Made by a program: the position numbers and the translations under genes. 64,000 nt of DNA, from the IMG/VR virus record IMGVR_UViG_3300028602_000008. The stretch is one strand, 5' to 3'. This document shows, piece by piece, positions 1-54,677 of the stretch. The DNA is from an uncultured virus (IMG/VR IMGVR_UViG_3300028602_000008) (Duplodnaviria > Heunggongvirae > Uroviricota > Caudoviricetes). Under the pieces are notes generated by a model. It worked only from the letters and a program-made list of their open reading frames with translations, was not told where the DNA came from and ran no database searches. The first letter of the stretch is position 1. Every line of letters starts with the position of its first letter.

Positions 1-233
1 CTGCAACGGGTGTTATGGATATGGCTTTGGATGCGATCGCTTGGGCATACTACAATTTGGCAGGAACAGTTGGATCGTTGTACATGCAAGGAACGCTAGG
101 CGACGTTAAGCTGCTCGGCGGCGGCGCTTGGGCTGTTGCGACGCGTGCCGGGTCGCGGGCGCGTTGTGCGGCTTACTCTCGCTGGTATGCGCATACGTCT
201 TTCGGCGGTCGCTTTGTCGCGGAGCCACAATAA
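1..233 (+). CDS. DGR target protein, 3' end (C-type-lectin/FGE-sulfatase-like fold; probable receptor-binding or adhesin protein), truncated by window start
   Basis: Open frame to TAA at 231-233; C-terminus LLGGGAW...FGGRFVAEPQ is typical of CLec-fold VRs and its DNA matches the TR at 287-403. Confidence 0.9.
   Translation, partial: ATGVMDMALDAIAWAYYNLAGTVGSLYMQGTLGDVKLLGGGAWAVATRAGSRARCAAYSRWYAHTSFGGRFVAEPQ
111..227 (+). repeat. DGR variable repeat (VR)
   Basis: 117 nt ungapped match to 287-403; 29 of 30 mismatches are at TR adenines. Confidence 0.97.
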
Positions 234-242
234 TTGTTATTC

Positions 243-263
243 GGAGTGCGGAAGTCGCACTCC
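243..263. promoter_or_regulatory. DGR target-recognition hairpin/cruciform downstream of VR
   Basis: GGAGTGCG-gaagt-CGCACTCC, perfect 8 bp stem starting 10 nt after the target stop codon. Confidence 0.85.
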
Positions 264-286
264 ATTAATAGGTTGAGCGAGTCTAC

Positions 287-403
287 CTGCTCAGCAGCAG
301 CAATTGGAATAATGCGACGAATGCCAGGTCACAGGCACGTAATGCGAATAACTATCGCTGGAATGCGAATACGAATATCGGCAGTCGCTTTGTCACAGAT
401 CCA
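287..403 (+). repeat. DGR template repeat (TR)
   Basis: AAT-rich copy of the VR (reads LLSSSNWNNATNARSQARNANNYRWNANTNIGSRFVTDP in VR frame), directly upstream of the RT. Confidence 0.97.
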
Positions 404-512
404 GGAAAATCGCGGAGAGCAACTCCTGGCTGGACTCGCTAACCTTGTCGAGAGGCAAAACACACAACGGAGGAGGAAAACAATTAGTACATAATGGAAA
501 GTTGTCTTCCTC
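401..512 (+). ncRNA. Structured spacer of the DGR template RNA between TR and RT
   Basis: Stems CCAGGA(401-406)/TCCTGG(424-429) and GAGGAAAACAAT(473-484)/GTTGTCTTCCTC(501-512); position matches the priming spacer of characterised DGRs. Confidence 0.65.
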
Positions 513-522
513 ATAAATTATC

Positions 523-1521
523 ATGAAACGACACGGAAATCTATTTGGGAAGATAACGGATTTGGATAATATATATTTAGCATATGCTAAAGCTAAAAAA
601 GGAAAAAGTTGGCAGAATACGATTAGTCGGTTTGATGATGACTTGGATGAAAATATATTTAATATTCGAGATTCGTTAATTGAAAAGACGTTTACAACAT
701 CATCGTATATTGAAAAAATGATATATGAACCAAAACAAAGAATCATTTACAAGTTACCCTTTAACCCAGATAGAGTCGTGCAACACGCCTTAATGAATAT
801 ATTAGAACCAATATGGAATGGATTGTTTATTTACGATTCGTATTCATGCAGGATCGGAAAAGGCATCCATGCTGCCAGCCGACGAACTATGGATTTTATT
901 CGAGCTACAGGACCTGGTTCATATTGTTTGAAAATGGATATCAGAAAATTCTATCCATCTATAGAGCATGATATTCTTTTTGATATAGTAAAAAGAAAAA
1001 TCAAATGTGAAGATACTCTTTGGTTATTAAAGGATATAATTTACAGTATTCCCGAAGGCAAAAATATACCCATTGGTAATTATTCTAGTCAATGGCTTGG
1101 AAATTTATACATGAACGAATTAGATCAGTATTTAAAACACCACCATAGAATAAAACATTACATTCGATATTGCGATGATTTTATAATATTACACCAAGAT
1201 AAAAAGTTTCTTGGTAAAATGGCACATGATATAGAAGGATTTTTGATGGATACTCTAAAATTAAAACTGAGCAAGAATGACATTTTTCCGATTAGCCAAG
1301 GAATAGACTTTTTAGGTTATCGACATTTTCCTAACCATATTTTAGTTAGAAAATCCACAGCGACTAGAATTAAACATAGAATGCATGAACTTCCGGGAAA
1401 ACTGTATCGAGGTGAAATAACCCCAGACCAATATCAATCTTCAATTGCATCAACCAAAGGTTGGCTTCTTTGGGCAAACAGTTATAACTTTATGCGGTCA
1501 TTGGAGCTTACTAATGCCTGA
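523..1521 (+). CDS. DGR reverse transcriptase
   Basis: 332 aa; DRVVQHA, LKMDIRKFYPSI, PIGNYSSQ (DGR-type SQ motif), RYCDD, GIDFLGY; no maturase or endonuclease domain. Confidence 0.97.
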   Translation: MKRHGNLFGKITDLDNIYLAYAKAKKGKSWQNTISRFDDDLDENIFNIRDSLIEKTFTTSSYIEKMIYEPKQRIIYKLPFNPDRVVQHALMNILEPIWNGLFIYDSYSCRIGKGIHAASRRTMDFIRATGPGSYCLKMDIRKFYPSIEHDILFDIVKRKIKCEDTLWLLKDIIYSIPEGKNIPIGNYSSQWLGNLYMNELDQYLKHHHRIKHYIRYCDDFIILHQDKKFLGKMAHDIEGFLMDTLKLKLSKNDIFPISQGIDFLGYRHFPNHILVRKSTATRIKHRMHELPGKLYRGEITPDQYQSSIASTKGWLLWANSYNFMRSLELTNA

Positions 1522-2110: not shown

Positions 2111-3268
2111 TTAACCCAGCTCTCCCCATCCTTTTTTCCATAAATCGCTTAGCCGTCCAAAGTACTTTGTGTACCTGGGTGCTACTGCTTCCATGGAATA
2201 TTGGCTAACGGCCCAGTTCCTGCAGGCCTTGGGTTTGATTTTGCCCACATTCTTGGCTGCATTTACGAAGTCTCTGAGCACCATTCCCCGGTACCCAGTC
2301 ACGCCCTGCTGAACGGTCTCCGTGTAGCACCCAAAGTCCGTAGTGATCACGGGACAGCCGCTCATCATGGCCTCAACCGCTACCCCTTCGAAAGGCCCGA
2401 TGTACTTGGTGGTCGAAAACAGGCCTTTGGCGTGAGACAACAGCTCAATTTTCTCTTTCTCTGATACGTATCCTATGTACTCCACGTTCGGGGAGCTGAG
2501 GTCAACCGTCTCACCCGGCTGGCCCGCCAGGATGAGATGGCCGCCCATTGCATCCATGGTCTGGATAGCGATGTCAATGCCCTTTCTGCCGGCGATTCTG
2601 CAGTTCATGAAGAAATAATCTTCCTTATTTCCGATACGGTAATGATCCTTATCGTAGAAGTTCGGGATCACATCATCGTACCAATCGCCATCTACGAACA
2701 TCTTGCTCTGCGTCCACGCCTTATAAATTCCGTAGACGTAGTGCCTCCATGCATTGCTTTCGAAGACATGGTGGCAGTTCAGCAAAATCCCGTCATAGCC
2801 TATCCCGCTTTCAACTAGGAAGGGATACCCGTTGGCCTTTTCTACGCCGCCCTGGGCTACCGGCCTGCAAATCTCCTCATAATAATTTCCCATCGGATTA
2901 CAGAGAATATCTCCTGGTTCAACCCTTTCTAAGATCTCCCTGATTGCGTTCGTCTTGAAGATCTTGTAGGCTGGATCATCCCTACCATGCTTGAAGAATT
3001 GACTTGAGAAGTCCTCCAGAGGACCATAGATCCGCAGCCTATCTGCCTCGGACAGGACATCAACGGTTTCCTTAGCGACAACCTTGCTGCCCTCGACTCC
3101 GTAGAAAATGATGTCGAACTTGGGTGACATCATCTCACAGAACCTTCGGATCTTCTGAGTATAAGCGCAAGCGAATACCGGGTCTGCTGCTACGGTTGGT
3201 AGATGTGCCAACCCCATAACATGCAATCTTGGGGGCATCAAAGCCTTCGTATAAACTTTCTCAGTCAT
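2111..3268 (-). CDS. Glycosyltransferase, GT4/GT-B family
   Basis: RKG...PFEGVAVEAMMSGCPVITTDFG GT4 signature; start trimmed to MTEKVY. Confidence 0.9.
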   Translation of the reverse strand: MTEKVYTKALMPPRLHVMGLAHLPTVAADPVFACAYTQKIRRFCEMMSPKFDIIFYGVEGSKVVAKETVDVLSEADRLRIYGPLEDFSSQFFKHGRDDPAYKIFKTNAIREILERVEPGDILCNPMGNYYEEICRPVAQGGVEKANGYPFLVESGIGYDGILLNCHHVFESNAWRHYVYGIYKAWTQSKMFVDGDWYDDVIPNFYDKDHYRIGNKEDYFFMNCRIAGRKGIDIAIQTMDAMGGHLILAGQPGETVDLSSPNVEYIGYVSEKEKIELLSHAKGLFSTTKYIGPFEGVAVEAMMSGCPVITTDFGCYTETVQQGVTGYRGMVLRDFVNAAKNVGKIKPKACRNWAVSQYSMEAVAPRYTKYFGRLSDLWKKGWGELG

Positions 3269-4784
3269 TTGAACTCCTCGAAACTCTTCCCGGTGCAGCC
3301 ATGGCTTCAAATCTCTCACTACCGGGCAGAACCTTCATTAGAATATCCTTAGCCCAGGGCTTAGCTATTGGTTTTACTGTAGCTGGCTTCTTGAACCTGA
3401 CTATGACCAACTGCGTTCTGAGCCTGCCGAAAGGATGGGTGTAATCGTCGATCTCGGGCATGATCTTGACAGCATACACGCTTCGGTCAATGGCATCGAC
3501 CACGGCCTTGGCCCCAATGAAAGGTAGCTCTGGGAAGTAGTCATCCAGTACGACCACAGTATTTTCATGCATCGATGTTTTTGCAAATTCCCAGTCACTC
3601 TTAATTGTTTCAAGCGAGTGCCCTCCGTCTATGAACATCAAGTCAATCGGCGGCCAGCTCTCGGGCGACAGGCGGGGCAGCTCCCTGGAGTCCATCTCCG
3701 CCAGAGTGATGGTTGCCTGGGTTTCTGTCTCCAGCCGGGCCTTCACCACAGCCATCTTCGGAGGAACGTATCCTCCGGTGAACTCAGCTTCCCATTGATC
3801 CGGCTTTCCGCTATCGAAAAGGTCTATCCCGAAGTACCTGATATTCTTCTCACCCTCGGCCTCCCCGGCGAGCTTAATCATTCCTATTGCAGTCTCTCCG
3901 GATGACGTACCTATTTCGAGAACGGTCTTCGGCTGAGAACTTCGAATAGCCTCAAACAGGCCCTTGTAGTGCTTTCCACGAGCACTTAGGTATGCTTCCT
4001 CATTCCAAGGCGCTCTCACGTTCCATTCATGGATTGGCAGGATTTCCCTTATCAGCCTGGCCAGCAGCGAGACGCTGGTTCGCACCCATTCTGCGTCAAT
4101 CGTATCAAAGATGGTTGCCGCTTTCGAATAGAGATGTACGACCCTGGTCTCTTTGGGCAGCGTTACCAGCTCCGCAGGATCTTCCCTATATATCGCACTT
4201 ATTTCGTTACCACCAAAGGGATTCAATACCAAATGCGGCGTTATCTTGAACCCACGAGCCAGGTTCTCACAGGCGATGGTGCTCAAAATAATCGGCCCGG
4301 TCAGCCCCCATGGGATACCTTCCATACCCATTATGGCATCAGTGAACCGTCTAATCGCCTTCGTGAGATGGGTGCCGGGTACAGCCATCACCACTGCGCT
4401 ATTGAACGGGAACGGGATGCTCTCGTAATCCTCGACATCCAAGCTTGCCGTCATCAGATCATCATTTATTAGATCTGAAATGTCTTTGATGCATATGGTA
4501 TCGAGATCAAGAACAATCCCCCCCACCTCATCCAGCACACGCCACATGACAAAATCCTTTGCATGTGTAAACTGGAAAGTGGGTGTCGTCTTTCGCAATG
4601 CCGGCATGTCCAAGACTATCGGCATTAGGGTTACCAGAGGGGCGATCTTGTCAAAATAGATCCCAGTTGGTTTTACGGTGTACCAAATGTTGACTCTTTC
4701 AACATGTTGGGTTGCGATAGCGGTCTGAACAGCTATCATGTGCATGTATTTGAAAGGGCCAGTACTGACATAATGTAACTCCAT
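3261..4784 (-). CDS. Fusion: DxD glycosyltransferase (GT32-like) + class I SAM methyltransferase
   Basis: N-half GGIVLDLD, WGLTGP; C-half VLEIGTSSG, MFIDGGHS, VVLDDY. Confidence 0.85.
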   Translation of the reverse strand: MELHYVSTGPFKYMHMIAVQTAIATQHVERVNIWYTVKPTGIYFDKIAPLVTLMPIVLDMPALRKTTPTFQFTHAKDFVMWRVLDEVGGIVLDLDTICIKDISDLINDDLMTASLDVEDYESIPFPFNSAVVMAVPGTHLTKAIRRFTDAIMGMEGIPWGLTGPIILSTIACENLARGFKITPHLVLNPFGGNEISAIYREDPAELVTLPKETRVVHLYSKAATIFDTIDAEWVRTSVSLLARLIREILPIHEWNVRAPWNEEAYLSARGKHYKGLFEAIRSSQPKTVLEIGTSSGETAIGMIKLAGEAEGEKNIRYFGIDLFDSGKPDQWEAEFTGGYVPPKMAVVKARLETETQATITLAEMDSRELPRLSPESWPPIDLMFIDGGHSLETIKSDWEFAKTSMHENTVVVLDDYFPELPFIGAKAVVDAIDRSVYAVKIMPEIDDYTHPFGRLRTQLVIVRFKKPATVKPIAKPWAKDILMKVLPGSERFEAMAAPGRVSRSSND

Positions 4785-5299
4785 TAAATATCCTCCGGAA
4801 AATTTAATACTGCAAATAAACCATATCGTACTTTTGCCTCGGCGTCATATGCGCGAGCAGCGTCTTCTTCCGTATCAAAATATCCTAACCATGTTCGTGT
4901 TCCCCCCTGAATAGCCGCACTCCATTTTTCATCTCGTTTATGCCACCACACACCTTTAAATTGACTAGATTTTGATTTACCCTGTACTCGCTGATTACGT
5001 AAATTTTCGGATTTGGTAGCTAATCTTATATTTGATCGACGATTATCCCGCCCATCGTGGTTTTTATGATCGGTTTCCTCATTTTTTTTAAGTGATCTAC
5101 CTATCATACGCTCCAATATAACACGATGCATCCTAATATTCGGTTTTCCTCGACCCATTCGACTATCTCGAACAGCATACCAAATTGGATTTGATTTCCT
5201 ACCTTGTCTAACTACAGACCATTTAAAATTAACTAAATCAGCATCAACCTCATCAACAACAGCAACTTGATCTTGGGTTAATGGGATTTTTATTACCAT
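4784..5299 (-). CDS. HNH-AP2 homing endonuclease
   Basis: MHR...[16 protein letters not shown] followed by AP2 (SQFKGV...[15 protein letters not shown]); AT-rich relative to neighbours. Confidence 0.92.
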
Positions 5300-5320
5300 A
5301 AAAACCTCGAAAAAAAATAG

Positions 5321-5548
5321 TTACTCCGGACTTTCCGGAGAGAATTCAGCGTTTATGGCATCACCCAGCTTCACAGAGCCGAATAACTCCTCAGCTCCAT
5401 CCTTGTCGGGGCCACTGACCGTCACTACGACCTTGTAAGCCAGATCATCGATGATCATGGTTGCTGTGGCTTTGGTGACAAATGCCAGCTTTTTCTTTCC
5501 GTCTCCCTGCAGCTTAGTGGGTTTAGGTCCACTTTCGAGTATTTGCAT
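5321..5548 (-). CDS. Hypothetical protein
   Basis: Co-oriented ORF abutting the MC1 gene. Confidence 0.65.
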   Translation of the reverse strand: MQILESGPKPTKLQGDGKKKLAFVTKATATMIIDDLAYKVVVTVSGPDKDGAEELFGSVKLGDAINAEFSPESPE

Positions 5549-5549
5549 T

Positions 5550-6110
5550 TCAAGTGCCAATTGGAATCCACTCCGATCCGAGCTTTTCTACCTTCGGGAT
5601 GTTGATCATAGCCGGCATCCAATCCGGGTCTTTATCCAGTTTGGCCCTTTGAATCCGAGAGCCAGTGAAGTAATGAATTTTGTACTCAACTACATTACCC
5701 TCAGCAGTCTTTCGGGTTCTACGTTTTCCGGTTTCCCGGATAGCGATATTAACTACGCCGGTATTGGCAATCTTCAGAGCAGCTTGGCGAGGAGACTTAC
5801 CAGTGTATTTTCCGATATCGTTATGATCAGTATCAAGAAGCATGTAATTCCGCTTTTCAGAATCGGGGGGATGAGCCCTATGGGGCTCCGACTTGAAGGC
5901 CTGCTTTTTCCCACCCTTTGCCTTAACAGATTTCTTTCCCTTAGTTGCAGATGCAGCCTTGACTATAGGTGCCTTAGTAGCTACGGGTTCTTTGGTAACT
6001 ACAGGTTTGGTTGCTGGGGTTTTCTTTATCTTTACGGTTTCCGGAACTACGGAAACTTTACCAGCGTTAGCGATTGCTGGTTTTTTCGGCGTTTTCTTAG
6101 GCTTAGCCAT
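5550..6110 (-). CDS. Chromosomal protein MC1 homologue with Lys/Ala/Pro/Thr-rich N-terminal extension
   Basis: C-half KRNYMLLD...GKYTGKSPRQAALKIAN...IRETG...KIHYF...PDWMP..I..PKV matches MC1 motifs (TGKQPRQAALKAANRG, PAWMP). Confidence 0.88.
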   Translation of the reverse strand: MAKPKKTPKKPAIANAGKVSVVPETVKIKKTPATKPVVTKEPVATKAPIVKAASATKGKKSVKAKGGKKQAFKSEPHRAHPPDSEKRNYMLLDTDHNDIGKYTGKSPRQAALKIANTGVVNIAIRETGKRRTRKTAEGNVVEYKIHYFTGSRIQRAKLDKDPDWMPAMINIPKVEKLGSEWIPIGT

Positions 6111-6112
6111 TC

Positions 6113-7690
6113 TTACTCCTCAGCCTGGCTAGATTCCAACCAGGCCCGAATCTGTTTGCCAGTATCTTCACTGATCGTGAAATAAGGCGTATCAGAGAAT
6201 ACCATTGTTCTATCCTTTGTGACCTGGGCCACATGGCTCGCTTGGTCGATTTCAAGGGCAATGGATACCTCATATTCTATGCCATCCCTGAAGATGATTC
6301 CCATTCCGACTTTCTTGGGCGCTGTGCCCTTGTCAGTCTTCTCAAGGGTATGCTCCATCTTGGACCTTGCCGTGAGAATCACATGCATAGAGCATGTCTG
6401 GATCTTCTCAATCAGCTTGGCATGCAGGGGCGTTACATCCTTCCAAGCAGTGTAGCTGTTACCGGACCTGCTGGCTGCAGTAATCTTGGTATGCAAGTCC
6501 AACAGGCCACCATCAGCAGTCCATGCATGGGTTAGCGAATCGATGATCATTACTTTTATGCCGGCCTTCTCAGCCATATCCATGGCTTGGATGTATCGGG
6601 AGACCGTGTAAGGAGCCTGCAGGGTGATCGTCTTATACTTGCCGATCTTTACCCCGTCAACTACCGAACCGACATACAGTGCTCCTGATTTGTTCTCAGT
6701 ATCCAAGATACAGATCTCGCCCCAGGAGTCACACAGGCCGCGGGCCAGGAGCAATGCACCCAGCGTCTTACCTCCACCGGAGGGAGACGAGATCATGATC
6801 TTGATGTAAGCCATCTCTCTGGCTGCATCCTCCATGACCAGCTCACCAGGGGCCGCCTGGGGGGCCTTGGGGGGTACGGCTGGGGCAGGCTTAGACTTGG
6901 ACAGATCCTTCTTGGGAGGAGCTGCAACTTTGCCGTTCATAACGTCATCCAGTGATGGGCCATCTTCCTCAGTTGCATCGGGTTCTGCAGCCATTGGCTC
7001 ATCAGGCGGATCTACTTTAGGAGCCGCTTTCTTGCCCCCAATGGTAGCGCTTGCTGCAGCGTCCATGGCCTTTTTAGAGTTACCAAGGGCGTTCTTACCA
7101 GGTGGCACAATCTTTTCTCCAGGGACAGCCACTCCGGTCTTTGTTGCGGCCTCTTTGGCTCGCTGTGCGATCCCATAGGCTGCTGTACCAGGCACCACCG
7201 AATCAGTTTTGGATAAATCTTCTCCCTTAGGAGCCGCTTTCTTGCCGCCATTGGGCTTCTCCGGTTTGGTGAAGTGAGCTGGAGGCTTGTCAGATGGCTT
7301 GGGGCAAGTCCTGCCCAGGCTATCTACCTCGGCATCTTCCTCGGCTGCTGGGGTTTTGGTTGTTGGCCCGGCAGGAGGCTTAGCGGTAGACTTTTTGCTT
7401 ACGGGTAGTGTTTCTTCTTCTTCCTCCTCCCCCTCTTCATTGTGCGCTTCAATAGCGCTCTTTAGGGCTCCCTTGAAGTGCTTATTGATCTTGATCAAGG
7501 ACGAAATCATGACATCATCCTCTTCGTCCGTTGGACTGATCTTGAGGAACTTGATCTCATTTTCTCCCATCTGTTGGAATCCCAAAGTGCCATACGGTGT
7601 CTGAATTACCGCGCTCTCTTCGTCAACTTCTGCGGTATAGCCGAATTTTTCTGCATAATCGGCTGCAAATTCATTTAGAAAGTCTTGCAT
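6113..7690 (-). CDS. AAA_24/Sak4-like P-loop ATPase with long low-complexity N-terminal region
   Basis: SPSGGGKT, LDTE, IIDSLTHAW, RDGIEYE, KDRT motifs. Confidence 0.85.
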   Translation of the reverse strand: MQDFLNEFAADYAEKFGYTAEVDEESAVIQTPYGTLGFQQMGENEIKFLKISPTDEEDDVMISSLIKINKHFKGALKSAIEAHNEEGEEEEEETLPVSKKSTAKPPAGPTTKTPAAEEDAEVDSLGRTCPKPSDKPPAHFTKPEKPNGGKKAAPKGEDLSKTDSVVPGTAAYGIAQRAKEAATKTGVAVPGEKIVPPGKNALGNSKKAMDAAASATIGGKKAAPKVDPPDEPMAAEPDATEEDGPSLDDVMNGKVAAPPKKDLSKSKPAPAVPPKAPQAAPGELVMEDAAREMAYIKIMISSPSGGGKTLGALLLARGLCDSWGEICILDTENKSGALYVGSVVDGVKIGKYKTITLQAPYTVSRYIQAMDMAEKAGIKVMIIDSLTHAWTADGGLLDLHTKITAASRSGNSYTAWKDVTPLHAKLIEKIQTCSMHVILTARSKMEHTLEKTDKGTAPKKVGMGIIFRDGIEYEVSIALEIDQASHVAQVTKDRTMVFSDTPYFTISEDTGKQIRAWLESSQAEE

Positions 7691-7699
7691 AACGCCTCC

Positions 7700-8002
7700 T
7701 TATTTTATGTATGGGTCAAGTGTTTTCGCAGCACTTGGGCCGAATTCTCGAACCATTTGCATCACGAGAATGGCTGCCCAGTGCTTACCAGCTCGAACTC
7801 CGAGACAGAAAGCTCTCTGTTCTCCGGGGGTCATGCCGACCAGGAGGATGGTTTCGAAATCCCCCATGGTTCCAGCACTGTTGACCATTTTAGCCATTCG
7901 TTCTTCGACCCACTGAGCGTCCTTATCAGGAAGCTCCATTGTGTTCTGTTCGGCTGGCTTGTTTGCATCATGAATTTTGTTAAGCTTATCTTGAAAACTC
8001 AT
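7700..8002 (-). CDS. Hypothetical protein
   Basis: Overlapping stop/start in minus-strand operon. Confidence 0.65.
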   Translation of the reverse strand: MSFQDKLNKIHDANKPAEQNTMELPDKDAQWVEERMAKMVNSAGTMGDFETILLVGMTPGEQRAFCLGVRAGKHWAAILVMQMVREFGPSAAKTLDPYIK

Positions 8003-11671: not shown

Positions 11672-12352
11672 TTAACCACCTCTTATCTGATTACAGCATT
11701 CCAAGACATTATCCAAAGGTCTTTCATATTTAGACCAATTAGCTAATGATTTGGGTGAATCGGTTATACTAAGGCTGGTATTAGTATTTATCTTCTCTCC
11801 CGGTATCAACCAAAGATGTTCTGGTATCAACGTTTTTCGATCTTTCCACGCGATGCAAAGGAAAAAATGGGCTTTCTTATTACAGCCGATATGGAAATGC
11901 CAAACATCATTTCCTGCTTTGGGGTGATATCTACAACTCGATTTCACGTCTATCTTGAAGCCCTTGGGACATTCATAATCGTAGTCGGGATTGTTATTAG
12001 GCATCCTCACAAATCCCGGAAATTCTTGCGATAAGACGGTTTCCGCTATGACGCAACCAAGATAAAGTGAGCATGATTTGTTTTCTGACGCGGGTTTAAT
12101 ACCTAGAGTTTTATAACGGTATTCTCGATTATATTGGTTTACCGTTTTTCGATGTCTTTTTTTCCAACTTCGTTTTGTTGCTGCGACCTGATCTAGGTGA
12201 GTGTTCTTCCAATTCAAAGTTTCTAGGCACGCACATTTTTTGCAATGATTACGTGGCTTTCCGATTTCTCGACCCGATTTATGAAAATTGAACTCACTTA
12301 AAGGTTTATCAGTATCGCATCCTCCGCAATGCTTCATCTCCAATGTCATCAC
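11672..12352 (-). CDS. Zn-ribbon + PD-(D/E)XK-like endonuclease, paralogue 1
   Basis: CGGC...KPLSEF...CKKC; AE...PDYDYECPKGFKIDVKSS. Confidence 0.7.
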   Translation of the reverse strand: MMTLEMKHCGGCDTDKPLSEFNFHKSGREIGKPRNHCKKCACLETLNWKNTHLDQVAATKRSWKKRHRKTVNQYNREYRYKTLGIKPASENKSCSLYLGCVIAETVLSQEFPGFVRMPNNNPDYDYECPKGFKIDVKSSCRYHPKAGNDVWHFHIGCNKKAHFFLCIAWKDRKTLIPEHLWLIPGEKINTNTSLSITDSPKSLANWSKYERPLDNVLECCNQIRGG

Positions 12353-19424: not shown

Positions 19425-20081
19425 TCACCTCTTCATTTTATCACAACATTCTAGAGCATTCTTTAATGAACGCTCATATTTAGACCATTTAGCTAATGAT
19501 TTAACTGTATCGGGTATGCTAATATTTTTTCGGTCATTCACCAAGTATCCCGGTATCAACCAAATGTGCATAGGTGTTAGTGATTCTAAGTCATCAAATG
19601 CTATAAATATGAAATAATGAACTCTTTTGTTATTTCTTACACTAAAGACCCATCGGTTATTTCCGATTATACGAGATCGTCTTGTAGACGATTTAACATC
19701 TATCAGGAAACCCTTCGGGCATTCATAATCGTAATCAGGATTACCAGGTGGCATCCTCTTAAAGCCGGGAAACTCGTGCGATAAAATAGTTTCCGCTATG
19801 ACGCAACCCAAGTATGCTGGGCATGCTTTATTTTCTGATGCTGGTTTTGAACCATGTTGATAATGATATTCACGAACACGTTTTCGGTTTTCATCAGGAT
19901 GTCTTTTATGCCACATATTTGCCTTTTCTGGATTATCTGCCTCCCATTTTTTTACCCTACCCGATTCACATTCCCTACATCGGCTAAGTGGTTTTCCTGC
20001 ACATCGACCAGATTTACGAAAATTGAACTCCTTTAACTCTTTATCTTCTCCGCACCCATTGCAATGTTTCAAAGTCATCAA
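19425..20081 (-). CDS. Zn-ribbon + PD-(D/E)XK-like endonuclease, paralogue 2
   Basis: Clearly similar to 11672-12352 (YLGCVIAET.LS.EFPGF.RMP..NPDYDYECPKGF.IDVKSS). Confidence 0.7.
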   Translation of the reverse strand: MMTLKHCNGCGEDKELKEFNFRKSGRCAGKPLSRCRECESGRVKKWEADNPEKANMWHKRHPDENRKRVREYHYQHGSKPASENKACPAYLGCVIAETILSHEFPGFKRMPPGNPDYDYECPKGFLIDVKSSTRRSRIIGNNRWVFSVRNNKRVHYFIFIAFDDLESLTPMHIWLIPGYLVNDRKNISIPDTVKSLAKWSKYERSLKNALECCDKMKR

Positions 20082-23215: not shown

Positions 23216-23746
23216 TTAAAAATGAATGGACTCCGAGAGATGAGTTAAAACGGTGTCACAGTGAATTAAATAATCTGCTAAAGTGCGGTTACCTTTCGCC
23301 GTGTTGCATCGATAACAAACTATTCGAACGTTGGACTTAGTTAAGATGGATTCATTATTTATACGGTCTAGGGTTGCTCTGTGGTCATAATCGCTATTAT
23401 GTGGAGGTGCATAATTTAGAGTTATTCCACAATATGCACAAGTCGGAGAAGCTAAAGCGAAGGATTCAAGCCATTTAGCACTAAACTCAATTGCATACTT
23501 CTTAAAATGATTGAAGTAAGAAGTAGCCGCCCAAACACGGCAAGGATACTTTGCTCTATACGTTTTTACATGCTTTTTGTGCTCCATTGGGTGAGTTATT
23601 CTACGATCTTTTGAGTATGAATTAACGCACTCTCGACACCAGGTTTTTAAGGCTCCGGTCTTTTTGTATGCTACTGAAAAAGACGATTTTGGTAAAGATC
23701 TTTTGCAACGGCGACACCTTTTAAAGCCCGGTAAAACTGCTTTCAT
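23216..23746 (-). CDS. HNH endonuclease with N-terminal Zn ribbon
   Basis: CRRC...CREC; CAYCG...TLDRINN...NVRIVCYRCNTAKG. Confidence 0.88.
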   Translation of the reverse strand: MKAVLPGFKRCRRCKRSLPKSSFSVAYKKTGALKTWCRECVNSYSKDRRITHPMEHKKHVKTYRAKYPCRVWAATSYFNHFKKYAIEFSAKWLESFALASPTCAYCGITLNYAPPHNSDYDHRATLDRINNESILTKSNVRIVCYRCNTAKGNRTLADYLIHCDTVLTHLSESIHF

Positions 23747-25071: not shown

Positions 25072-25752
25072 ATGAATAAAGATACCAAATTCTGCTGGAA
25101 TTGTAATACAGAGAAACCATTATCTGCATTTGGTATACGTAAAACTGGAAAGAACGCAGGAAAACCTACTCATCCATGCCTAGAATGTCGAAATGCCCTT
25201 AAAAGACAATGGAAACAAGATCATCCAGATAAATATCAGGAACGGCAAGCTAGATATAACCAACATCGTAGAGAACGCCCAGGTCACACACAAATGGCCG
25301 ATAATCCAAAATGTACTCTCTACCTAGGGTATTTCATTAGTGAAACGGTATTGTCTCGTGAATTCAAAAATGTTAAACGAATGCCAGTAACTCACCCAGG
25401 TTACGACTTCGAATGCAATAGACACTTTAAAATCGATGCCAAATCATCGTGTTTAGTCAATGCATCACGAGGTGGTTCATATTGGCAATTCACAATCAAA
25501 TGCAACAAAGTCCCTCACTTCTACCTTCTCATCGCCTGGGACAATCGTGACAATCTCAATCCAATCCATATATGGCTAATACCAGCAGCCCTGATAAACA
25601 TGAAAAAGATCATATACATTGGAAACACCGAAAAGAGTCTAGCCAAGTGGAAAAAATATGAACGTCCATTGACCAACGTCTTATCCTGTTGCAAAACAAT
25701 GCGTGCCAAAAAGTTACTTGAAGAGGATATCGAAGAGGTACTTCACCTCTAA
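25072..25752 (+). CDS. Zn-ribbon + PD-(D/E)XK-like endonuclease, paralogue 3
   Basis: CWNC..KPLSAF; YLG..ISETVLS.EF...PGYDFEC..FKIDAKSS; HIWLIP; SLAKW.KYER.L.NVL.CC shared with paralogues. Confidence 0.7.
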   Translation: MNKDTKFCWNCNTEKPLSAFGIRKTGKNAGKPTHPCLECRNALKRQWKQDHPDKYQERQARYNQHRRERPGHTQMADNPKCTLYLGYFISETVLSREFKNVKRMPVTHPGYDFECNRHFKIDAKSSCLVNASRGGSYWQFTIKCNKVPHFYLLIAWDNRDNLNPIHIWLIPAALINMKKIIYIGNTEKSLAKWKKYERPLTNVLSCCKTMRAKKLLEEDIEEVLHL

Positions 25753-27624: not shown

Positions 27625-27861
27625 TCAGACAATAAGCTCACCCTCAACCTCACGCAAAGCCAATTTAGCCAGGCTCGTTGGCTCATACAAAATGCACCCA
27701 TTTCCATCAGATACACGAGTATCGCAGCCCTTCATATCGCATGCGGCCATAACATATGAATCAATTATAAACATGCGTACCTGTCTATGATGAATTCGAT
27801 TCCAGTGGGTACAATAACCACAAATATGATAGCATACCAACCATTCATTGTATGTGGTCAT
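27625..27861 (-). CDS. Small Cys-rich protein
   Basis: C..CGYCTHW...C...C; overlaps neighbours. Confidence 0.5.
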   Translation of the reverse strand: MTTYNEWLVCYHICGYCTHWNRIHHRQVRMFIIDSYVMAACDMKGCDTRVSDGNGCILYEPTSLAKLALREVEGELIV

Positions 27862-28516
27862 GAATCAACATCCTTCCCGTTTCAATACTAGATACCGAAT
27901 AATCCAGATATTCGCATAGCCCAAACCCAAATTCCCGAAGCTGTTCCTGACTGACCACCCCATGACCCGAGCCCTTACCTATCGCAATTCTGATCGGGAA
28001 GCCCTTCAATGCACCCATGGTGAAGAAGTCAAACTGGGACTCCGGGAAGAGCACCATCCTAATCTCAGCTCGCCTAGGATCGAGTCGGGCCAGGTTAGAC
28101 ATGAGACTATCAAAACTGCCGGGAAAGCCTGTGTACGAGTCGTACAGGGCCCTCTCAAGCGAAGTTTTGATGTCAAGGAATACCCTGTCAGCCCCGGATG
28201 CAATGGGACCACAGCCCGAGGTTTCAATTCCAACATCCATGCCTAGCTCATGGCAATAATCGATGATTCGGAGGCATGCACTCAGTTGACAAGCAGGCTC
28301 GCCCCCAGAAATAACCACATGACCCACAAACCGGCATGCATCCAGGATTGCAGCCTTGATAACGTCGAAGTCAACCATTTTCGTGGTCATTCTGATCTGG
28401 GCATTGTGGCAGTTGGGGCATTTCATTGGGCAGCCATTCAGAAAGAGGACCAGGGCCGAATGGCCAAACCAATCTATGGTGCTCAAATCCACCTTACCAG
28501 CGTAATTGACCATCAT
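27845..28516 (-). CDS. nrdG: Radical SAM protein, anaerobic ribonucleotide reductase activase-like
   Basis: STIDW.G...VLFLNGCPMKCPNCHN, VVISGGEP, LDIK. Confidence 0.75.
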   Translation of the reverse strand: MMVNYAGKVDLSTIDWFGHSALVLFLNGCPMKCPNCHNAQIRMTTKMVDFDVIKAAILDACRFVGHVVISGGEPACQLSACLRIIDYCHELGMDVGIETSGCGPIASGADRVFLDIKTSLERALYDSYTGFPGSFDSLMSNLARLDPRRAEIRMVLFPESQFDFFTMGALKGFPIRIAIGKGSGHGVVSQEQLREFGFGLCEYLDYSVSSIETGRMLIHDHIQ

Positions 28517-34889: not shown

Positions 34890-35034
34890 GACAAGACTTA
34901 TTTGTCCTATTAGACACAATGGTCAACAAATTTATGTCTTTGATGTATATCATGACAAGACTTATTTGTCCTATTAGACACAATGGTCAACAAATTTATG
35001 TCTTTGATGTATATCATGACAAGACTTATTTGTC
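34890..35034. repeat. Exact 64-bp tandem repeat (2 copies + 17 bp) containing three GACAAgacttatTTGTC inverted boxes
   Basis: Units 34890-34953, 34954-35017, partial 35018-35034. Confidence 0.95.
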
Positions 35035-45454: not shown

Positions 45455-45940
45455 TCACTGCTCTGCTAATTTTTGCAATAGCTCTCGGTTTTGATCTACG
45501 CTGTTAGCGACGTGTCGGCGTTCGCTGCTTGAGAGTGCAAACCCACCAGGAACTGGAATCGTATTACTGGCTTTCAAAGATGATAGGCTGAGGAAGAGCT
45601 TTACTTTGAAGGCTATGAACCTATCATATTTTGTGTTGTAGCTATCGATTTCGTTCCAGAGGGCTTTTTCTGACTCGTCGATTGGAAGAGCTTCTGCCAG
45701 GATTTGAGCTGGGAGATGATAGATATCTCTCATTTCGGCTACGTCCGTGATCCTACCCCATAGGGCTCCTTTGACAGCATAACCTCGTCTTAGTTCAACG
45801 GTGCGTCCAGTATATACGGTTTTGTGGTTGAATCGAGGGCTGACTGCTCGAATCTCCCAGAGCTTCGTTCCTGCTTTGAATAGGTCATACCATTTCTTGT
45901 TTAACGGCACGAAGAGTCGATCTTCACTCATGCTTGTCAT
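45455..45940 (-). CDS. ASCH/PUA-like domain protein
   Basis: L.KKWYD.F.AGTK.WEIR...RRGY. Confidence 0.75.
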   Translation of the reverse strand: MTSMSEDRLFVPLNKKWYDLFKAGTKLWEIRAVSPRFNHKTVYTGRTVELRRGYAVKGALWGRITDVAEMRDIYHLPAQILAEALPIDESEKALWNEIDSYNTKYDRFIAFKVKLFLSLSSLKASNTIPVPGGFALSSSERRHVANSVDQNRELLQKLAEQ

Positions 45941-46328
45941 ATTCCTCCGAGAATATTATTGTATCTATCTTGGCGTTTTTCAGTACCCGGCGACACATTA
46001 CGCATGGAGAATGGGTGCAATAGAGCGTGGCCCCTTTAATGGAGACTCCATGGAGAGCTGCCTGAATGATGGCATTCACCTCAGCGTGAACTGCTCTGCA
46101 GGTCTCGAATTTGGTAGCGTGCTCGGGTTTTGAGCAGCCAATGTCGAGGCAGTGCTCTTCGCCACTTGGCGCTCCATTGTAGCCGGTAGAGATGACCTGG
46201 TTGTCGATTACGAAGATGGCACCTACCTTGTTATGGGTGCATGTGGACCGAGAGGCCACTACTTTGCACATCTCTAAATAGTAAGTGTCTATATCAGGCC
46301 TGGTATCGATTAAGGTTTGGGTTTTCAT
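45924..46328 (-). CDS. dCMP deaminase
   Basis: RSTC...VGA...STGYNG...HAEVNAI...HSPCVMC. Confidence 0.93.
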   Translation of the reverse strand: MKTQTLIDTRPDIDTYYLEMCKVVASRSTCTHNKVGAIFVIDNQVISTGYNGAPSGEEHCLDIGCSKPEHATKFETCRAVHAEVNAIIQAALHGVSIKGATLYCTHSPCVMCRRVLKNAKIDTIIFSEEYDKHE

Positions 46329-46330
46329 GG

Positions 46331-46855
46331 TTACATCTCTGGAAAATTTAATTTAGCATACTCACCAAAATGTAGTTTTGCGGCTGTATCATAAGCAAGT
46401 GCAGCGTCTTTTTCGATAACAAAAAGACCTAAATAAAGCATTTTTTCGTTTTTTTGTATTTGAGCATACCATTTAGAATGTTTTTTATGCCACGTTACCC
46501 CTTTATATTGACTATGCGCATTCATATTTCGTTTTCGTTGGTTCATTGCATTTTGGGATCTTGTTACTACTCTCAAATTTTTAAGTGTGTTTTTTAGGCC
46601 ATCGTGATCAATATGATCGATTTCCTCGGACTTTAAAAGTGGTCTGTCCAATTTGATGCTCATGATAACGCGATGTATAAGATCTACTGATACAACACTA
46701 TGTAAATGTATTGTACGTGCGGCGTAATAGCGAGCGTGTGAATTACGTAGATCGCGTCTGGCATACCATTTATATTGATTCAGATATTCAAACTCGTCAT
46801 CAATTTGAGTTACCATTCCCCGAGTTAGTTGAATTTCGATCATTTCTGCCCCCAA
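46331..46855 (-). CDS. HNH-AP2 homing endonuclease
   Basis: IHR...DHIDHDGLKN...NLR; SQYKGV...LGLF..EKDAALAYD. Confidence 0.92.
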   Translation of the reverse strand: MGAEMIEIQLTRGMVTQIDDEFEYLNQYKWYARRDLRNSHARYYAARTIHLHSVVSVDLIHRVIMSIKLDRPLLKSEEIDHIDHDGLKNTLKNLRVVTRSQNAMNQRKRNMNAHSQYKGVTWHKKHSKWYAQIQKNEKMLYLGLFVIEKDAALAYDTAAKLHFGEYAKLNFPEM

Positions 46856-47635: not shown

Positions 47636-48382
47636 TCACGCACACGCCATGCTTACTGCTATCTTTTTGCAGAACGGTACATCCATAGTCTCTCCGAGGA
47701 GCCGGGCTACTTCTGGCCAGTTGAACCAGTATATGTGGGCTGATTCTGAGAACAGTATGAGGTTTCCTATTTCGCAATTTCCCACTGCATCGGCTATGAA
47801 CTCCATGACCCCGGATAACCCGTATGTGTTGGCAGGATAAGCACCAAACATATCATGGGAGCGATAAGGAACGATAGCATTCAGCCGATCTCCCCGGATG
47901 AGTGCCTGAAAAGACATCATGCAGGGCGGAGATTCAGTTTTCTCGTCGTAGGGCGGCACCCAGGTAACGGCGATGGCTCTGCGACTGGAACGATCCCGCT
48001 TCAGCTCTCGGATGATGTAGTCGAGCTGGTCAATGGAGATAAGCTGGCTGTTCTTTGTCCAGACCTGGCCAGCTCCCCAGGCTCGCAGCCTTGAACCATA
48101 AGTGTACTCAAACCCAGGGTTGAAACTGGTAAGGAATCCTGCCTTATAATCCTCCCAGGAGTTTGAGCCTGCCTTCCAAATGTAACCATCGGGGAAAGCT
48201 CCCTTATCCGGGAGATATATCTGGCTTCGGAGGCCCATAATTTCAACCGTTTCTATGGGTTTGTTGTCATAGATAACTTCGGTGAGCGTTCCAAAGTGCC
48301 ATATTTGTCTGAGACATTCCATCCAGACCTCGGGTGTATGATGGCCTACGATATTTAGGTTTTCCTGTAATTTGTTCAGCAT
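47636..48382 (-). CDS. thyA: Thymidylate synthase (archaeal-type ThyA)
   Basis: YTYGSRL, SRRA, PPCM, YRSHD...PAN, SAHIY. Confidence 0.92.
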   Translation of the reverse strand: MLNKLQENLNIVGHHTPEVWMECLRQIWHFGTLTEVIYDNKPIETVEIMGLRSQIYLPDKGAFPDGYIWKAGSNSWEDYKAGFLTSFNPGFEYTYGSRLRAWGAGQVWTKNSQLISIDQLDYIIRELKRDRSSRRAIAVTWVPPYDEKTESPPCMMSFQALIRGDRLNAIVPYRSHDMFGAYPANTYGLSGVMEFIADAVGNCEIGNLILFSESAHIYWFNWPEVARLLGETMDVPFCKKIAVSMACA

Positions 48383-54676: not shown

Positions 54677-54677
54677 T

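What the first reader, a model, noticed from the sequence alone, without database searches (positions are those of the whole stretch)
5550..6110. Virus-encoded MC1 chromatin protein with a histone-H1-like basic tail
Seen: the C-terminal ~100 aa carry MC1 motifs and the N-terminal ~75 aa are K/A/P/T/V low-complexity (AKPKKTPKKP...KGKKSVKAKGGKK), with an extra basic insert KRRTRKT. Known: cellular MC1 of Methanosarcinales and haloarchaea is a ~90-100 aa DNA-bending protein without such a tail. Inference: a viral genome-condensing or host-chromatin-displacing protein whose architecture parallels linker histones.
Basis: partly seen in the sequence, partly recalled or inferred. Interest (0 to 1): 0.72.

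Follow-up and report, generated by a model that had tools for sequence, protein, structure and literature searches.

The report
Archaeal-virus MC1 protein with lysine-rich tail
A virus of methane-cycling archaea encodes its own version of the archaeal DNA-bending protein MC1, with a long floppy lysine-rich arm at its front end. Giant viruses and some bacteria are already known to use this design to gather DNA, so it is an interesting variant and not a new kind of thing.

Summary
ORF 5550-6110 (minus strand, 186 aa) has a C-terminal MC1 domain (Pfam PF05854, 63 bits against a cut-off of 23, residues 85-180). Its N-terminal 84 residues are disordered and contain 25% K, 15.5% A and 13% P, with net charge +18.

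The tail is translated and under selection. No other start codon lies before codon 90, tail dN/dS is 0.13-0.26, and net charge stays at +16 to +19 in 11 of 11 long-tailed homologues.

The protein belongs to a distinct virus-only MC1 clade (SH-aLRT 97). All members examined carry a roughly 13-residue basic extension of the beta3-beta4 hairpin, and nearly all carry a basic tail of 32-115 aa. None of 78 cellular MC1 genes has such a tail.

The gene sits in a conserved block (Sak4-like ATPase, MC1, small acidic protein) inside the replication module of a 77-85 kb dsDNA virus of methanogen-type archaea.

The most likely role is as a DNA-bending and DNA-gathering scaffold acting on viral DNA inside the cell. 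The closest precedent is Mimivirus R252/gp275/ILS1, which this scan had already met in giant viruses. HU proteins with H1-like tails are a second precedent.

Host, capsid type and expression are unresolved.

Verdict: new variant of a known kind, interest 0.5.

The parts
5550..6110 (-). Whole coding sequence of the tailed MC1 protein (186 aa plus TGA stop)
   Evidence: ORF list. Pfam MC1 at 63.1 bits. Eleven full-length homologues at 45-80% BLASTP identity and one shorter homologue.
5859..6110 (-). N-terminal lysine-rich disordered tail, residues 1-84
   Evidence: Composition and net charge +18. No predicted secondary structure; mean pLDDT 55-70 over residues 1-70, rising to 77 over 71-80. dN/dS 0.13-0.26 in 5 informative pairs. 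No Pfam family at E<=1.
6036..6110 (-). Conserved N-terminal motif, residues 1-25 (consensus MAKPKK..KKPALKNAGKVSVAPET)
   Evidence: Mean pairwise identity 0.68 among 11 long-tailed homologues.
5913..6035 (-). Variable K/A/P/T/V linker, residues 26-66
   Evidence: Mean pairwise identity 0.35. Length varies among homologues through in-frame indels while net tail charge stays at +16 to +19.
5859..5912 (-). Conserved pre-domain motif, residues 67-84 (consensus KKAFKAEPHRAHPP)
   Evidence: Mean pairwise identity 0.66. pLDDT rises to 77-89 here.
5553..5858 (-). MC1 DNA-bending domain, residues 85-186
   Evidence: Pfam and PDB 1t23. AF2 mean pLDDT 96-98 over residues 91-180, with strand/helix order b1-b2-a-b3-(extra)-b4-b5. 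Equivalents of DNA-contact residues R4, K22, R25, Q26, P72, W74 and K86 are kept as R87, K105, R108, Q109, P162, W164 and K176.
5682..5726 (-). Clade-specific basic extension of the beta3-beta4 hairpin, residues 129-143 (KRRTRKTAEGNVVEY)
   Evidence: Present in all 15 viral-clade rows and in none of the 7 cellular or L004 rows. An extra strand E131-135 appears in the model.
6116..6121 (-). Shine-Dalgarno-like GAGGAG, 5 nt before the ATG and inside the end of the upstream gene
   Evidence: Read from the sequence.
6113..7690 (-). Upstream neighbour: a Sak4-like AAA_24 ATPase with a 285-aa acidic, P/A/K-rich N-terminal region. Its stop codon ends 2 nt before the MC1 ATG.
   Evidence: Pfam AAA_24 at 1.9e-16, phrog_1366 at 3e-67 and phrog_124 'Sak4-like' at 2.9e-5. 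It lies upstream of MC1 in every related locus that has an upstream flank.
5321..5548 (-). Downstream neighbour: a small acidic protein (75 aa from the ATG, pI about 4.7, no known family). Its ATG lies 1 nt after the MC1 stop.
   Evidence: It lies downstream of MC1 in every related locus that has a downstream flank.
4784..5299 (-). HNH-AP2 homing endonuclease inserted into the block (present in some relatives, absent in others)
   Evidence: Pfam HNH_3 and AP2. Present in L098 and L101; absent in G001:C52, L097 and L100.
2111..4784 (-). Two syntenic downstream genes: a glycosyltransferase-methyltransferase fusion (3261-4784) and a group-1 glycosyltransferase (2111-3319)
   Evidence: Conserved order in L006, L097, L100, L104, L105 and L106.

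Best explanation
The gene encodes a virus-specific architectural DNA-binding protein.

Its C-terminal MC1 domain binds and sharply bends double-stranded DNA, as cellular MC1 does. Two additions are confined to the viral clade. One is a basic extension of the beta3-beta4 hairpin of about 13 residues. The other is a disordered N-terminal tail with a fixed net charge near +18. Both would add non-specific contacts with DNA phosphates. Together they could turn a one-site bender into a multivalent protein able to bridge, gather or co-condense DNA.

The gene is made from the same tightly packed gene array as a Sak4-like recombination ATPase and lies in the replication module. It therefore most likely acts inside the infected cell on replicating or recombining viral DNA.

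Shown here: family membership, conservation of most DNA-contact residues, disorder, selection on the tail and conserved charge, the virus-only clade, and synteny.

Inferred: DNA binding itself, the tail's contribution to it, the time of expression, and which DNA (viral or host) is the target.
For: **Family membership.**
- Pfam MC1 at 63 bits and 1t23 at 1.4e-8.
- Confident AF2 domain model.
- BFVD Foldseek gives 8 matches at E<=1e-3. All are giant-virus proteins, and rows 7, 9 and 10 of the list are labelled non-histone chromosomal or MC1-domain proteins.

**DNA contacts.** 7 of 11 contact residues named in PMC6776556 (passages) are kept.

**The tail is made and selected.**
- The only start codon before codon 90 is codon 1.
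- dN/dS is 0.13-0.26 in 5 informative pairs, against 0.00-0.15 for the domain.
- Indels are all in frame.
- Net charge is +16 to +19 in 11 of 11 long-tailed homologues, although tail length runs 85-115 aa and linker identity is only 35%.

**Virus-only clade.**
- 20 rows group with SH-aLRT 97, and the long-tailed forms are a sub-clade of 11 rows with support 94.
- 78 of 78 cellular loci start 1-3 residues before the domain.

**Conserved block.** The order Sak4-like, MC1, small acidic protein is kept in the window and in all related loci with flanks. Gene spacing is 2 nt and 1 nt.

**Precedents.**
- Mimivirus R252/gp275 has an MC1-like core between disordered regions, bends and condenses DNA, and is essential (abstract and passages).
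- The same protein, named ILS1, phase-separates only with DNA and marks the DNA-holding inner layer of the viral factory (passages).
- Phage phi29 p6 is a phage-encoded DNA-organising protein with a disordered tail (passage in PMC11894785).
Against: - No experiment and no expression data exist. The two possible RNA runs cover only part of the upstream gene.
- Four of the 11 DNA-contact positions differ, two of them basic-to-other changes in the DNA-inserting arm: R71 to D161, K81 to I171, Q23 to S106 and I89 to S179. The binding geometry may therefore differ from cellular MC1.
- Two structure searches against solved structures did not return MC1, so the fold rests on sequence, the model's topology and BFVD matches.
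- One close pair gave tail dN/dS 0.64, on very few changes.
- Tail-less members of the viral clade exist (P0015, 107 aa, 9 cluster members), so the tail is not indispensable to the clade.
- The host and capsid type are unknown, so where the protein acts is open.
Confidence: 0.6

Rival explanations
1. Virion genome-packing protein. The protein is loaded into the capsid with the DNA and neutralises its charge there, like Mimivirus gp275, which is found in virions.
For: Mimivirus gp275 is present in the virion. The protein is strongly basic, with net charge +25. In the complete relative G232 the gene lies about 0.5 kb from the end of the plus-strand block that holds the tail-fibre-like genes. The capsid type of this virus is not established.
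Against: The gene is packed among replication and recombination genes on the strand of the replication module, not in the putative structural block. If the virus is head-tailed, established knowledge of terminase-driven packaging says DNA enters through the portal free of bound protein. Hints of a head-tailed virus are weak: tail-protein PHROG hits at 2.4e-8 and 2.4e-4, and terminal repeats.
Confidence: 0.12
2. Host-chromatin take-over. The protein binds the host chromosome, competes with host chromatin proteins, and shuts down or remodels host DNA.
For: The protein probably has high non-specific DNA affinity. In the order of the nearest held genome G001, which carries at least 5 contigs of a related virus, only 1 of 121 genomes has an MC1 match, and that match is G001's own virus-like contig. 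Among high-quality genomes the count is 0 of 95. If that lineage is the host, the protein would be foreign to host chromatin.
Against: The host link rests only on virus contigs sitting in a binned genome, with no host-virus junction. The reverse transcriptase's nearest phage record names Methanosarcinales as host, and that lineage has its own MC1. Nothing shows a preference for host DNA.
Confidence: 0.13
3. Gene-regulatory or replication-origin architectural factor for the virus's own, possibly modified, DNA, acting at specific sites. This would resemble phage phi29 p6 or, from recall, SPO1 TF1.
For: The virus carries nucleotide-metabolism and candidate DNA-modification genes: a thymidylate-synthase-family protein, a dCMP deaminase, a QueE-like radical SAM protein, and glycosyltransferase and methyltransferase genes directly downstream of MC1. 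Cellular MC1 has preferred sequences (passage in PMC6776556). Phi29 p6 is a precedent.
Against: There is no evidence of DNA modification. The thymidylate-synthase homologue looks like an ordinary methanogen-type enzyme (TIGR03283, 157.6 bits, just under the cut-off). A long charge-conserved tail argues for bulk rather than site-specific binding.
Confidence: 0.1
4. The tail is not part of the functional protein: a wrong start call, or a leader that is cut off.
For: Tail-less clade members exist (P0015 and P0016). One close pair gave tail dN/dS 0.64.
Against: No in-frame start lies between codons 1 and 90, and there is a Shine-Dalgarno-like site before codon 1. The tail is under purifying selection in 5 pairs, and its charge is conserved in 11 of 11 homologues. 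The frame is kept through many indels. Cleavage after translation cannot be excluded.
Confidence: 0.05

Closest known systems
Cellular MC1 (Methanogen Chromosomal protein 1, Pfam PF05854; M. thermophila structure 1t23/2khl/2nbj)
   Same: Same family and same predicted fold order. The key bending residue R25 (here R108) and the intercalating P72/W74 pair (P162/W164) are kept.
   Different: Cellular forms are 90-100 aa and start 1-3 residues before the domain (78 of 78 loci). This protein has an 84-aa basic tail, a hairpin insert of about 13 residues, and changes at R71, K81, Q23 and I89. It sits on a separate, well-supported branch. Identity to cellular MC1 is 35-47%.
Mimivirus R252 = gp275 = ILS1 and other giant-virus MC1-domain proteins
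   Same: A virus-encoded MC1-type core joined to disordered regions. The Mimivirus protein bends and condenses DNA, is essential, and phase-separates only with DNA in the viral factory. BFVD structural matches of this model are all to such giant-virus proteins.
   Different: The virus realm and host domain differ. Here there is one N-terminal tail only, R25 is kept (Mimivirus has K), and a hairpin insert is present. No specific kinship was seen: long MC1 representatives with basic tails (P0089, P0141) fall outside the viral clade. BFVD matches are weak, with E 1e-4 to 1e-3.
Bacterial HU with histone-H1-like lysine-rich tails (mycobacterial HupB, Streptomyces HupS; Deinococcus HU N-terminal extension from recall)
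   Same: A small nucleoid protein fused to a K/A/P-rich disordered tail that is needed for function (titles and abstract starts of PMC5676037 and PMC2932737, seen in the listing only).
   Different: A different fold (HU, not MC1), cellular rather than viral, and the tail is mostly C-terminal.
Linker histone H1
   Same: A globular DNA-binding domain plus a long K/A/P-rich disordered tail. A TPKK motif occurs at residues 7-10, seen in the sequence and kept only in P0002 among the homologues.
   Different: No winged-helix globular domain and no Pfam linker-histone match. The tail is N-terminal. K is 25%, against roughly 40% in H1 tails (recalled), and the tail is richer in V and T.
Phage phi29 protein p6
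   Same: A phage-encoded, non-virion DNA-organising protein with a disordered tail (passage in PMC11894785). From recall, it acts on replicating viral DNA.
   Different: An unrelated fold that multimerises head to tail; the host is bacterial.

Membership tests
MC1 (PF05854) | Match to the family profile above the curated cut-off | tested here: met
   63.1 bits against 23, E 3e-17, profile positions 1-93 of 96. The same holds for viral-clade relatives P0013-P0017 at 58-68 bits.
MC1 (PF05854) | Fold order b1-b2-a1-b3-b4-b5 (pseudo-barrel) | tested here: met
   The AF2 model gives E87-92, E98-104, H107-116, E121-126, (extra E131-135), E138-156 and E168-183, with mean pLDDT 96-98 over residues 91-180. 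This is a predicted structure only.
MC1 (PF05854) | Structural superposition on solved MC1 | tested here: inconclusive
   Foldseek against PDB gave nothing at E<=1e-3. VIA-align against 48,161 chains gave a best Z of 4.9 and MC1 was not listed. BFVD matches to giant-virus MC1-domain models had E 1e-4 to 1e-3.
MC1 (PF05854) | DNA-contact residues of M. thermophila MC1 (R4, K22, Q23, R25, Q26, R71, P72, W74, K81, K86, I89; PMC6776556) | tested here: met
   7 of 11 are kept, including R25, P72 and W74. The changed positions are Q23 to S, R71 to D, K81 to I and I89 to S.
MC1 (PF05854) | Binds and bends DNA | not testable with these tools
   Needs EMSA, AFM or circularisation assays.
Linker histone H1/H5 | Winged-helix globular domain (Pfam Linker_histone) | tested here: not met
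   MC1 is the only Pfam family at E<=0.01 on the whole protein. Nothing matches the tail alone at E<=1.
Linker histone H1/H5 | Long K/A/P-rich disordered tail | tested here: met
   84 aa with K 25%, A 15.5%, P 13% and net charge +18, predicted disordered. It is N-terminal and less lysine-rich than H1 tails (recalled).
Giant-virus R252/gp275/ILS1-type MC1 proteins | MC1-type core joined to intrinsically disordered region(s) in a virus-encoded protein | tested here: met
   for this protein; for the Mimivirus protein.
Giant-virus R252/gp275/ILS1-type MC1 proteins | Common descent with the giant-virus proteins (orthology) | tested here: inconclusive
   No named giant-virus sequence was in the tree. 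Tailed or multi-domain representatives (P0089, P0141) fall outside the viral clade. BFVD matches are weak.
Giant-virus R252/gp275/ILS1-type MC1 proteins | DNA-dependent condensation or phase separation; presence in the virion | not testable with these tools
   Needs purified protein and virions.

The most novel reading that the evidence does not exclude
Tailed MC1 may be the scaffold of a DNA-protein condensate in which this virus replicates. That would be a prokaryotic-virus counterpart of the giant-virus viral-factory scaffold ILS1. It would be built by an old, virus-only MC1 lineage and carried into hosts that have no MC1 of their own. In the order of the nearest held genome, which carries the related virus contigs, only that genome's own virus-like contig matches MC1 among 121 genomes. 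Viral DNA would then be wrapped in a chromatin distinct from the host's.
Probability: 0.15. Interest if true: 0.75.

Novelty: new variant of a known kind. Interest (0 to 1): 0.5.

Why it matters
MC1 is a small, sparsely spread family. The profile of this protein family found only 144 clusters, at 50% identity, among 1.84 billion representative proteins. Until now MC1 was known from some euryarchaea and, in altered form, from giant viruses.

A separate, conserved, virus-only branch in viruses of methanogen-type archaea shows that viruses of two domains independently took the same DNA bender and attached disordered basic arms to it. This gives a concrete protein with which to ask how archaeal viruses organise their replicating genomes, and whether condensate-type replication compartments exist in archaea.

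The near-constant tail charge (+16 to +19) across sequence-divergent tails is also a clean natural example of selection on the charge of a disordered region and not on its sequence.

The virus is widespread in wastewater, landfill and groundwater metagenomes: 15 runs hold 0.43-0.75 of the sampled words of window 4800-7700.

Tried and rejected
- **Phage and PHROG searches.** tblastn of the protein against 50,697 phage records gave no match. PHROGs gave no family for it, and NCBIfam gave none.
- **Single-protein scan of viral contigs.** None confirmed. The alignment-based scan then found 2.
- **Structure searches.** Foldseek against PDB gave no match at E<=1e-3. VIA-align wide gave a best Z of 4.9, with MC1 not among the rows. 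I do not read either as evidence against the fold.
- **Expression.** No RNA holder was listed with confidence. Two possible cDNA runs, kept as contigs, cover only 6236-7173 (plus a 38-base piece at 7470-7507 in one run), inside the upstream gene, and nothing on MC1. No conclusion on expression follows.
- **Virus class.**
  - The terminase family phrog_2 was not found in the complete relative G232.
  - PHROG and Pfam scans of its ORFs gave only two tail or tail-fibre hits and a DUF1565 match.
  - The 'terminase' PHROG hits on its helicase accompany an insertion, which I read as an intein-type element and not as a terminase.
  - The Atlas gave a weak lead (0.82, below the 0.9 line) from a conserved 393-aa protein to PRD1 P3-type capsid proteins.
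  - Its AF2 model was unusable, with mean pLDDT 38, so I ran no fold search on it.
  - Head-tailed or not remains open.
- **Host.**
  - A DNA search of the window's first 20 kb in 151 genomes of G001's family showed only G001's virus contigs and weak reverse-transcriptase matches. No spacer-like hits appeared.
  - No tRNA gene lies in the window.
  - I considered a tetranucleotide comparison with G001 and dropped it, because binning already uses that signal.
- **Fast evolution of MC1 relative to its neighbours.** This idea was rejected. The very high identity of flanking genes in L098 and L101 sits next to a 94-100% identical homing endonuclease and is better explained by homing with co-conversion.
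- **Literature.** Eight searches listed no paper describing MC1 in an archaeal or bacterial virus. The library holds only open PMC papers and bioRxiv. Supplementary annotation tables of virome papers were not searched and may list PF05854.
Full report
**1. What is in the sequence**

The ORF at 5550..6110 on the minus strand encodes 186 residues. Pfam's MC1 model (PF05854) matches residues 85-180 over almost its whole length, at 63.1 bits against a cut-off of 23 and E 3e-17. The solved MC1 of Methanosarcina thermophila (1t23) matches residues 85-176 at E 1.4e-8.

The first 84 residues contain 25% Lys, 15.5% Ala, 13% Pro, 10.7% Val and 8.3% Thr, with net charge +18. Among 114 ORFs of at least 80 aa in the window, this is the only one with such a stretch. 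No Pfam family matches the tail even at E<=1.

An AlphaFold2 model built on 56 sequences gives mean pLDDT 96-98 for residues 91-180, with the MC1 order of strands and helix. It predicts no secondary structure for residues 1-86, with mean pLDDT 55-70 over residues 1-70.

**2. Is the tail translated?**

- There is no in-frame ATG, GTG or TTG between codon 1 and codon 90, and codon 90 lies inside the domain.
- GAGGAG sits 5 nt before the ATG, and the upstream gene's stop codon ends 2 nt before it.
- Eleven full-length homologues (186-220 aa) keep the frame through many indels.
- Across five informative pairs of DNA loci the tail's dN/dS is 0.13-0.26, against 0.00-0.15 for the domain.
- The closest pair gave 0.64, but on very few changes (dS 0.12).
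- The tail has three parts: a conserved N-terminal motif (residues 1-25, mean pairwise identity 0.68), a variable linker (26-66, 0.35) and a conserved pre-domain motif (67-84, 0.66).
- Tail length runs from 85 to 115 residues, yet net charge stays at +16 to +19 in 11 of 11 long-tailed homologues. That pattern is what selection on a functional disordered region looks like.

**3. What the element is**

The window is viral. It carries a family-B DNA polymerase, a primase-helicase, a helicase, a PolB-type exonuclease, a dCMP deaminase, a methanogen-type thymidylate synthase (TIGR03283, 157.6 bits, just under its cut-off), a DGR reverse transcriptase and several HNH or HNH-AP2 endonucleases.

A syntenic relative, G232 (the record of L003), is 77,180 bp with direct terminal repeats and is rated complete. 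Close copies of the protein lie on contigs of up to about 85 kb. By comparison with G232, the window holds everything except the putative structural block.

I could not establish the capsid type. No terminase, portal or capsid family was recognised in G232, only two tail or tail-fibre hits. A weak Atlas lead to PRD1-type capsid proteins (0.82) could not be tested, because the model of that protein was unusable.

**4. A virus-only branch of MC1**

A profile of the family, searched against 1.84 billion representatives, found only 144 clusters at E<=1e-3 and 6 at E<=1e-30.

In a quick maximum-likelihood tree (89 rows, 96 columns), the window protein groups with 19 other rows at SH-aLRT 97, and the long-tailed forms make a sub-clade of 11 rows (support 94). 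One of the 20 rows (P0088) sits on a very long branch, so its place is unsure.

Every member whose DNA context I could see lies in the same viral gene block. All 15 clade rows aligned carry the hairpin insert, and none of the 7 cellular or L004 rows does.

Tails in the clade range from none (P0015, P0016) through 32-64 residues (L104, L003, L105, L006, L106) to 85-115 residues. By contrast, 78 of 78 cellular MC1 genes (Methanotrichaceae, Methanosarcinaceae, ANME-2 and similar, by their record titles) have a start codon 1-3 residues before the domain and no basic tail.

A different virus contig (L004) carries a tail-less MC1 that groups with Methanotrichaceae-type proteins, which is a separate and more recent capture.

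Other MC1 architectures exist in metagenomes. These include AMMECR1-MC1 and Myb-MC1 fusions, and two other basic-tailed forms of unknown origin.

**5. Context**

The order is: two small unknown genes, a Sak4-like AAA_24 ATPase, MC1, a small acidic protein (pI 4.7), sometimes a homing endonuclease, a glycosyltransferase-methyltransferase fusion, and a glycosyltransferase. This order is kept in the window and in every related locus with flanks (L085/L096, L097, L098, L099, L100, L101, L102, L003/L103, L104, L105, L106/L107, L006).

In two loci (L006, L097) an extra 0.6-1.6 kb lies between the ATPase and MC1. In L006 this stretch holds a 207-aa ORF that I read as HNH-like by eye.

Spacing in the window is 2 nt before MC1 and 1 nt after it, so MC1 has no promoter region of its own. 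It is presumably made together with the recombination ATPase.

**6. How it most likely works**

MC1 bends DNA sharply in three ways: through a basic residue in its helix (R25), by insertion of P72 and W74 into the minor groove, and by phosphate neutralisation (PMC6776556, passages). Seven of the eleven named contact residues are kept here, including all three of those. Two basic residues of the arm are lost (R71 to D, K81 to I).

The clade has added two basic elements: the hairpin extension (KRRTRKT...) and the tail. I infer that the protein still bends DNA, and that the added elements give further phosphate contacts. One molecule could then hold more than one DNA segment, producing bridging, compaction or co-condensation.

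The closest tested case is Mimivirus R252/gp275. It has an MC1-like core between disordered regions, bends and condenses DNA, is essential and is present in virions (bioRxiv 10.1101/2024.02.22.580433, abstract and passages). Under the name ILS1 it forms droplets only with DNA and marks the DNA-holding inner layer of the viral factory (bioRxiv 10.1101/2024.09.01.610734, passages).

Given the gene's place in the replication/recombination block, I favour action on viral DNA inside the cell (confidence 0.6 for the general mechanism). The rivals are packing in the virion, host-chromatin take-over, and site-specific regulation. They are not mutually exclusive, and none is tested.

**7. Host**

This is unresolved.

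The nearest held genome, G001 (1.5 Mb, 75% complete), carries at least five contigs of a related virus (65-99% nucleotide identity) with no host junction. In a sample of G001's order, 1 of 121 genomes has MC1, and that match is G001's own virus-like contig. Among high-quality genomes the count is 0 of 95.

Separately, an 80%-identical copy lies on a 6.6-kb contig of a genome whose record title reads Methanomethylophilaceae (L005). Another copy lies in a bin titled Gracilibacteria, which is surely a binning error (L006).

Against this, the reverse transcriptase's only phage-record match is a virus annotated with host Methanosarcinales (73% over 1.46 kb). The nearest cellular MC1s are also from Methanotrichaceae and Methanosarcinaceae.

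The methanogen-type thymidylate synthase supports a methanogen host in general. Runs holding the virus are from wastewater, landfill, groundwater and aquatic metagenomes.

**8. Comparison and novelty**

Membership in MC1 is met on the profile, the predicted fold and most contact residues. Superposition on the solved structure was inconclusive.

It is not a linker histone. The likeness lies in tail composition only.

The design 'nucleoid protein plus lysine-rich tail' is known from giant-virus MC1 proteins and from HU of actinobacteria (PMC5676037 and PMC2932737, listing only). This scan has met the giant-virus form several times before on other DNA.

What seems undescribed is the virus-only MC1 clade in archaeal viruses, with its hairpin insert, its three-part charge-conserved tail and its fixed gene block. 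Eight literature searches listed no paper on it. The library is limited to open papers and preprints, and supplements were not searched.

I class it as a new variant of a known kind, with interest 0.5.

Noticed in passing
window 111-1521: Diversity-generating retroelement. The reverse transcriptase lies at 523-1521 (+) (phrog_1423, E 6e-124). A 124-nt repeat pair at 111-234 and 287-410 (73% identical) sits just upstream and is probably the variable and template repeats. The target gene would begin before the window. The nearest phage record is BK063673 (73% over 1.46 kb, host given as Methanosarcinales).
   Followed up: partly
window 34890-35017: A perfect 64-nt tandem duplication in the gap between the primase-helicase gene and a divergent small gene. 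It is a candidate origin or control region.
   Followed up: no
window 6113-7690: The Sak4-like ATPase carries a 285-residue N-terminal extension. It has an acidic head (pI 4.3) followed by a P/A/K-rich region with acidic patches, and is conserved in relatives (one has PPAKPPAKPPAKKK). It could be a charge partner of the MC1 tail. Not tested.
   Followed up: partly
window 5321-5548: A small acidic protein (75 aa, no family in Pfam, PHROGs or NCBIfam) is always directly downstream of MC1. Its start lies 1 nt after the MC1 stop, and it is the best conserved gene of the block (85-95% identity where MC1 is 55-62%). It may be a partner of MC1.
   Followed up: partly
window 4784-5299 and 46331-46855; also 11672-12352, 19425-20081, 25072-25752, 23216-23746: The window holds many homing-type endonucleases. 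The HNH-AP2 gene next to the MC1 block is present at 94-100% identity in some relatives (L098, L101) and absent in others (G001:C52, L097, L100), as expected of an active homing element. Repeat families D1, D4 and D5 link the copies.
   Followed up: partly
window 47636-48382, 45924-46328, 27845-28516, 2111-4784: A nucleotide-metabolism and candidate DNA-modification set: methanogen-type thymidylate synthase (TIGR03283, 157.6 bits against a cut-off of 174.55), dCMP deaminase, a QueE-like radical SAM protein, and glycosyltransferase and methyltransferase genes. Whether the viral DNA is modified is unknown.
   Followed up: partly
window 51341-62225 and 62453-63691: Two giant proteins (2515 aa and 1111 aa) and a 412-aa protein carry PEGA domains, with a 63-nt repeat family inside the largest gene (61749-62075). 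They are probably surface or adhesion proteins. The relative G232 has a 2862-aa counterpart.
   Followed up: no
L093 1106-4732 and L092 15503-18097 (relative G232): The relative's DNA polymerase is 1208 aa, against 830 aa in the window, and has an intein-splicing match. Its helicase is 864 aa, against 513 aa, with an insertion that hits 'terminase' and reductase PHROGs. Both are probably inteins that the window's genes lack.
   Followed up: partly
L004 7424-7762: A second, unrelated virus contig (19.9 kb) carries a tail-less 112-aa MC1 that groups with Methanotrichaceae-type cellular MC1. This is an independent capture of the gene by a virus.
   Followed up: partly
proteins P0066, P0090, P0120, P0141, P0089: Other MC1 architectures occur in metagenomes: AMMECR1-MC1 fusions, a Myb-MC1 fusion, and two further basic-tailed forms of unknown origin (one on a 161-kb contig).
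   Followed up: partly
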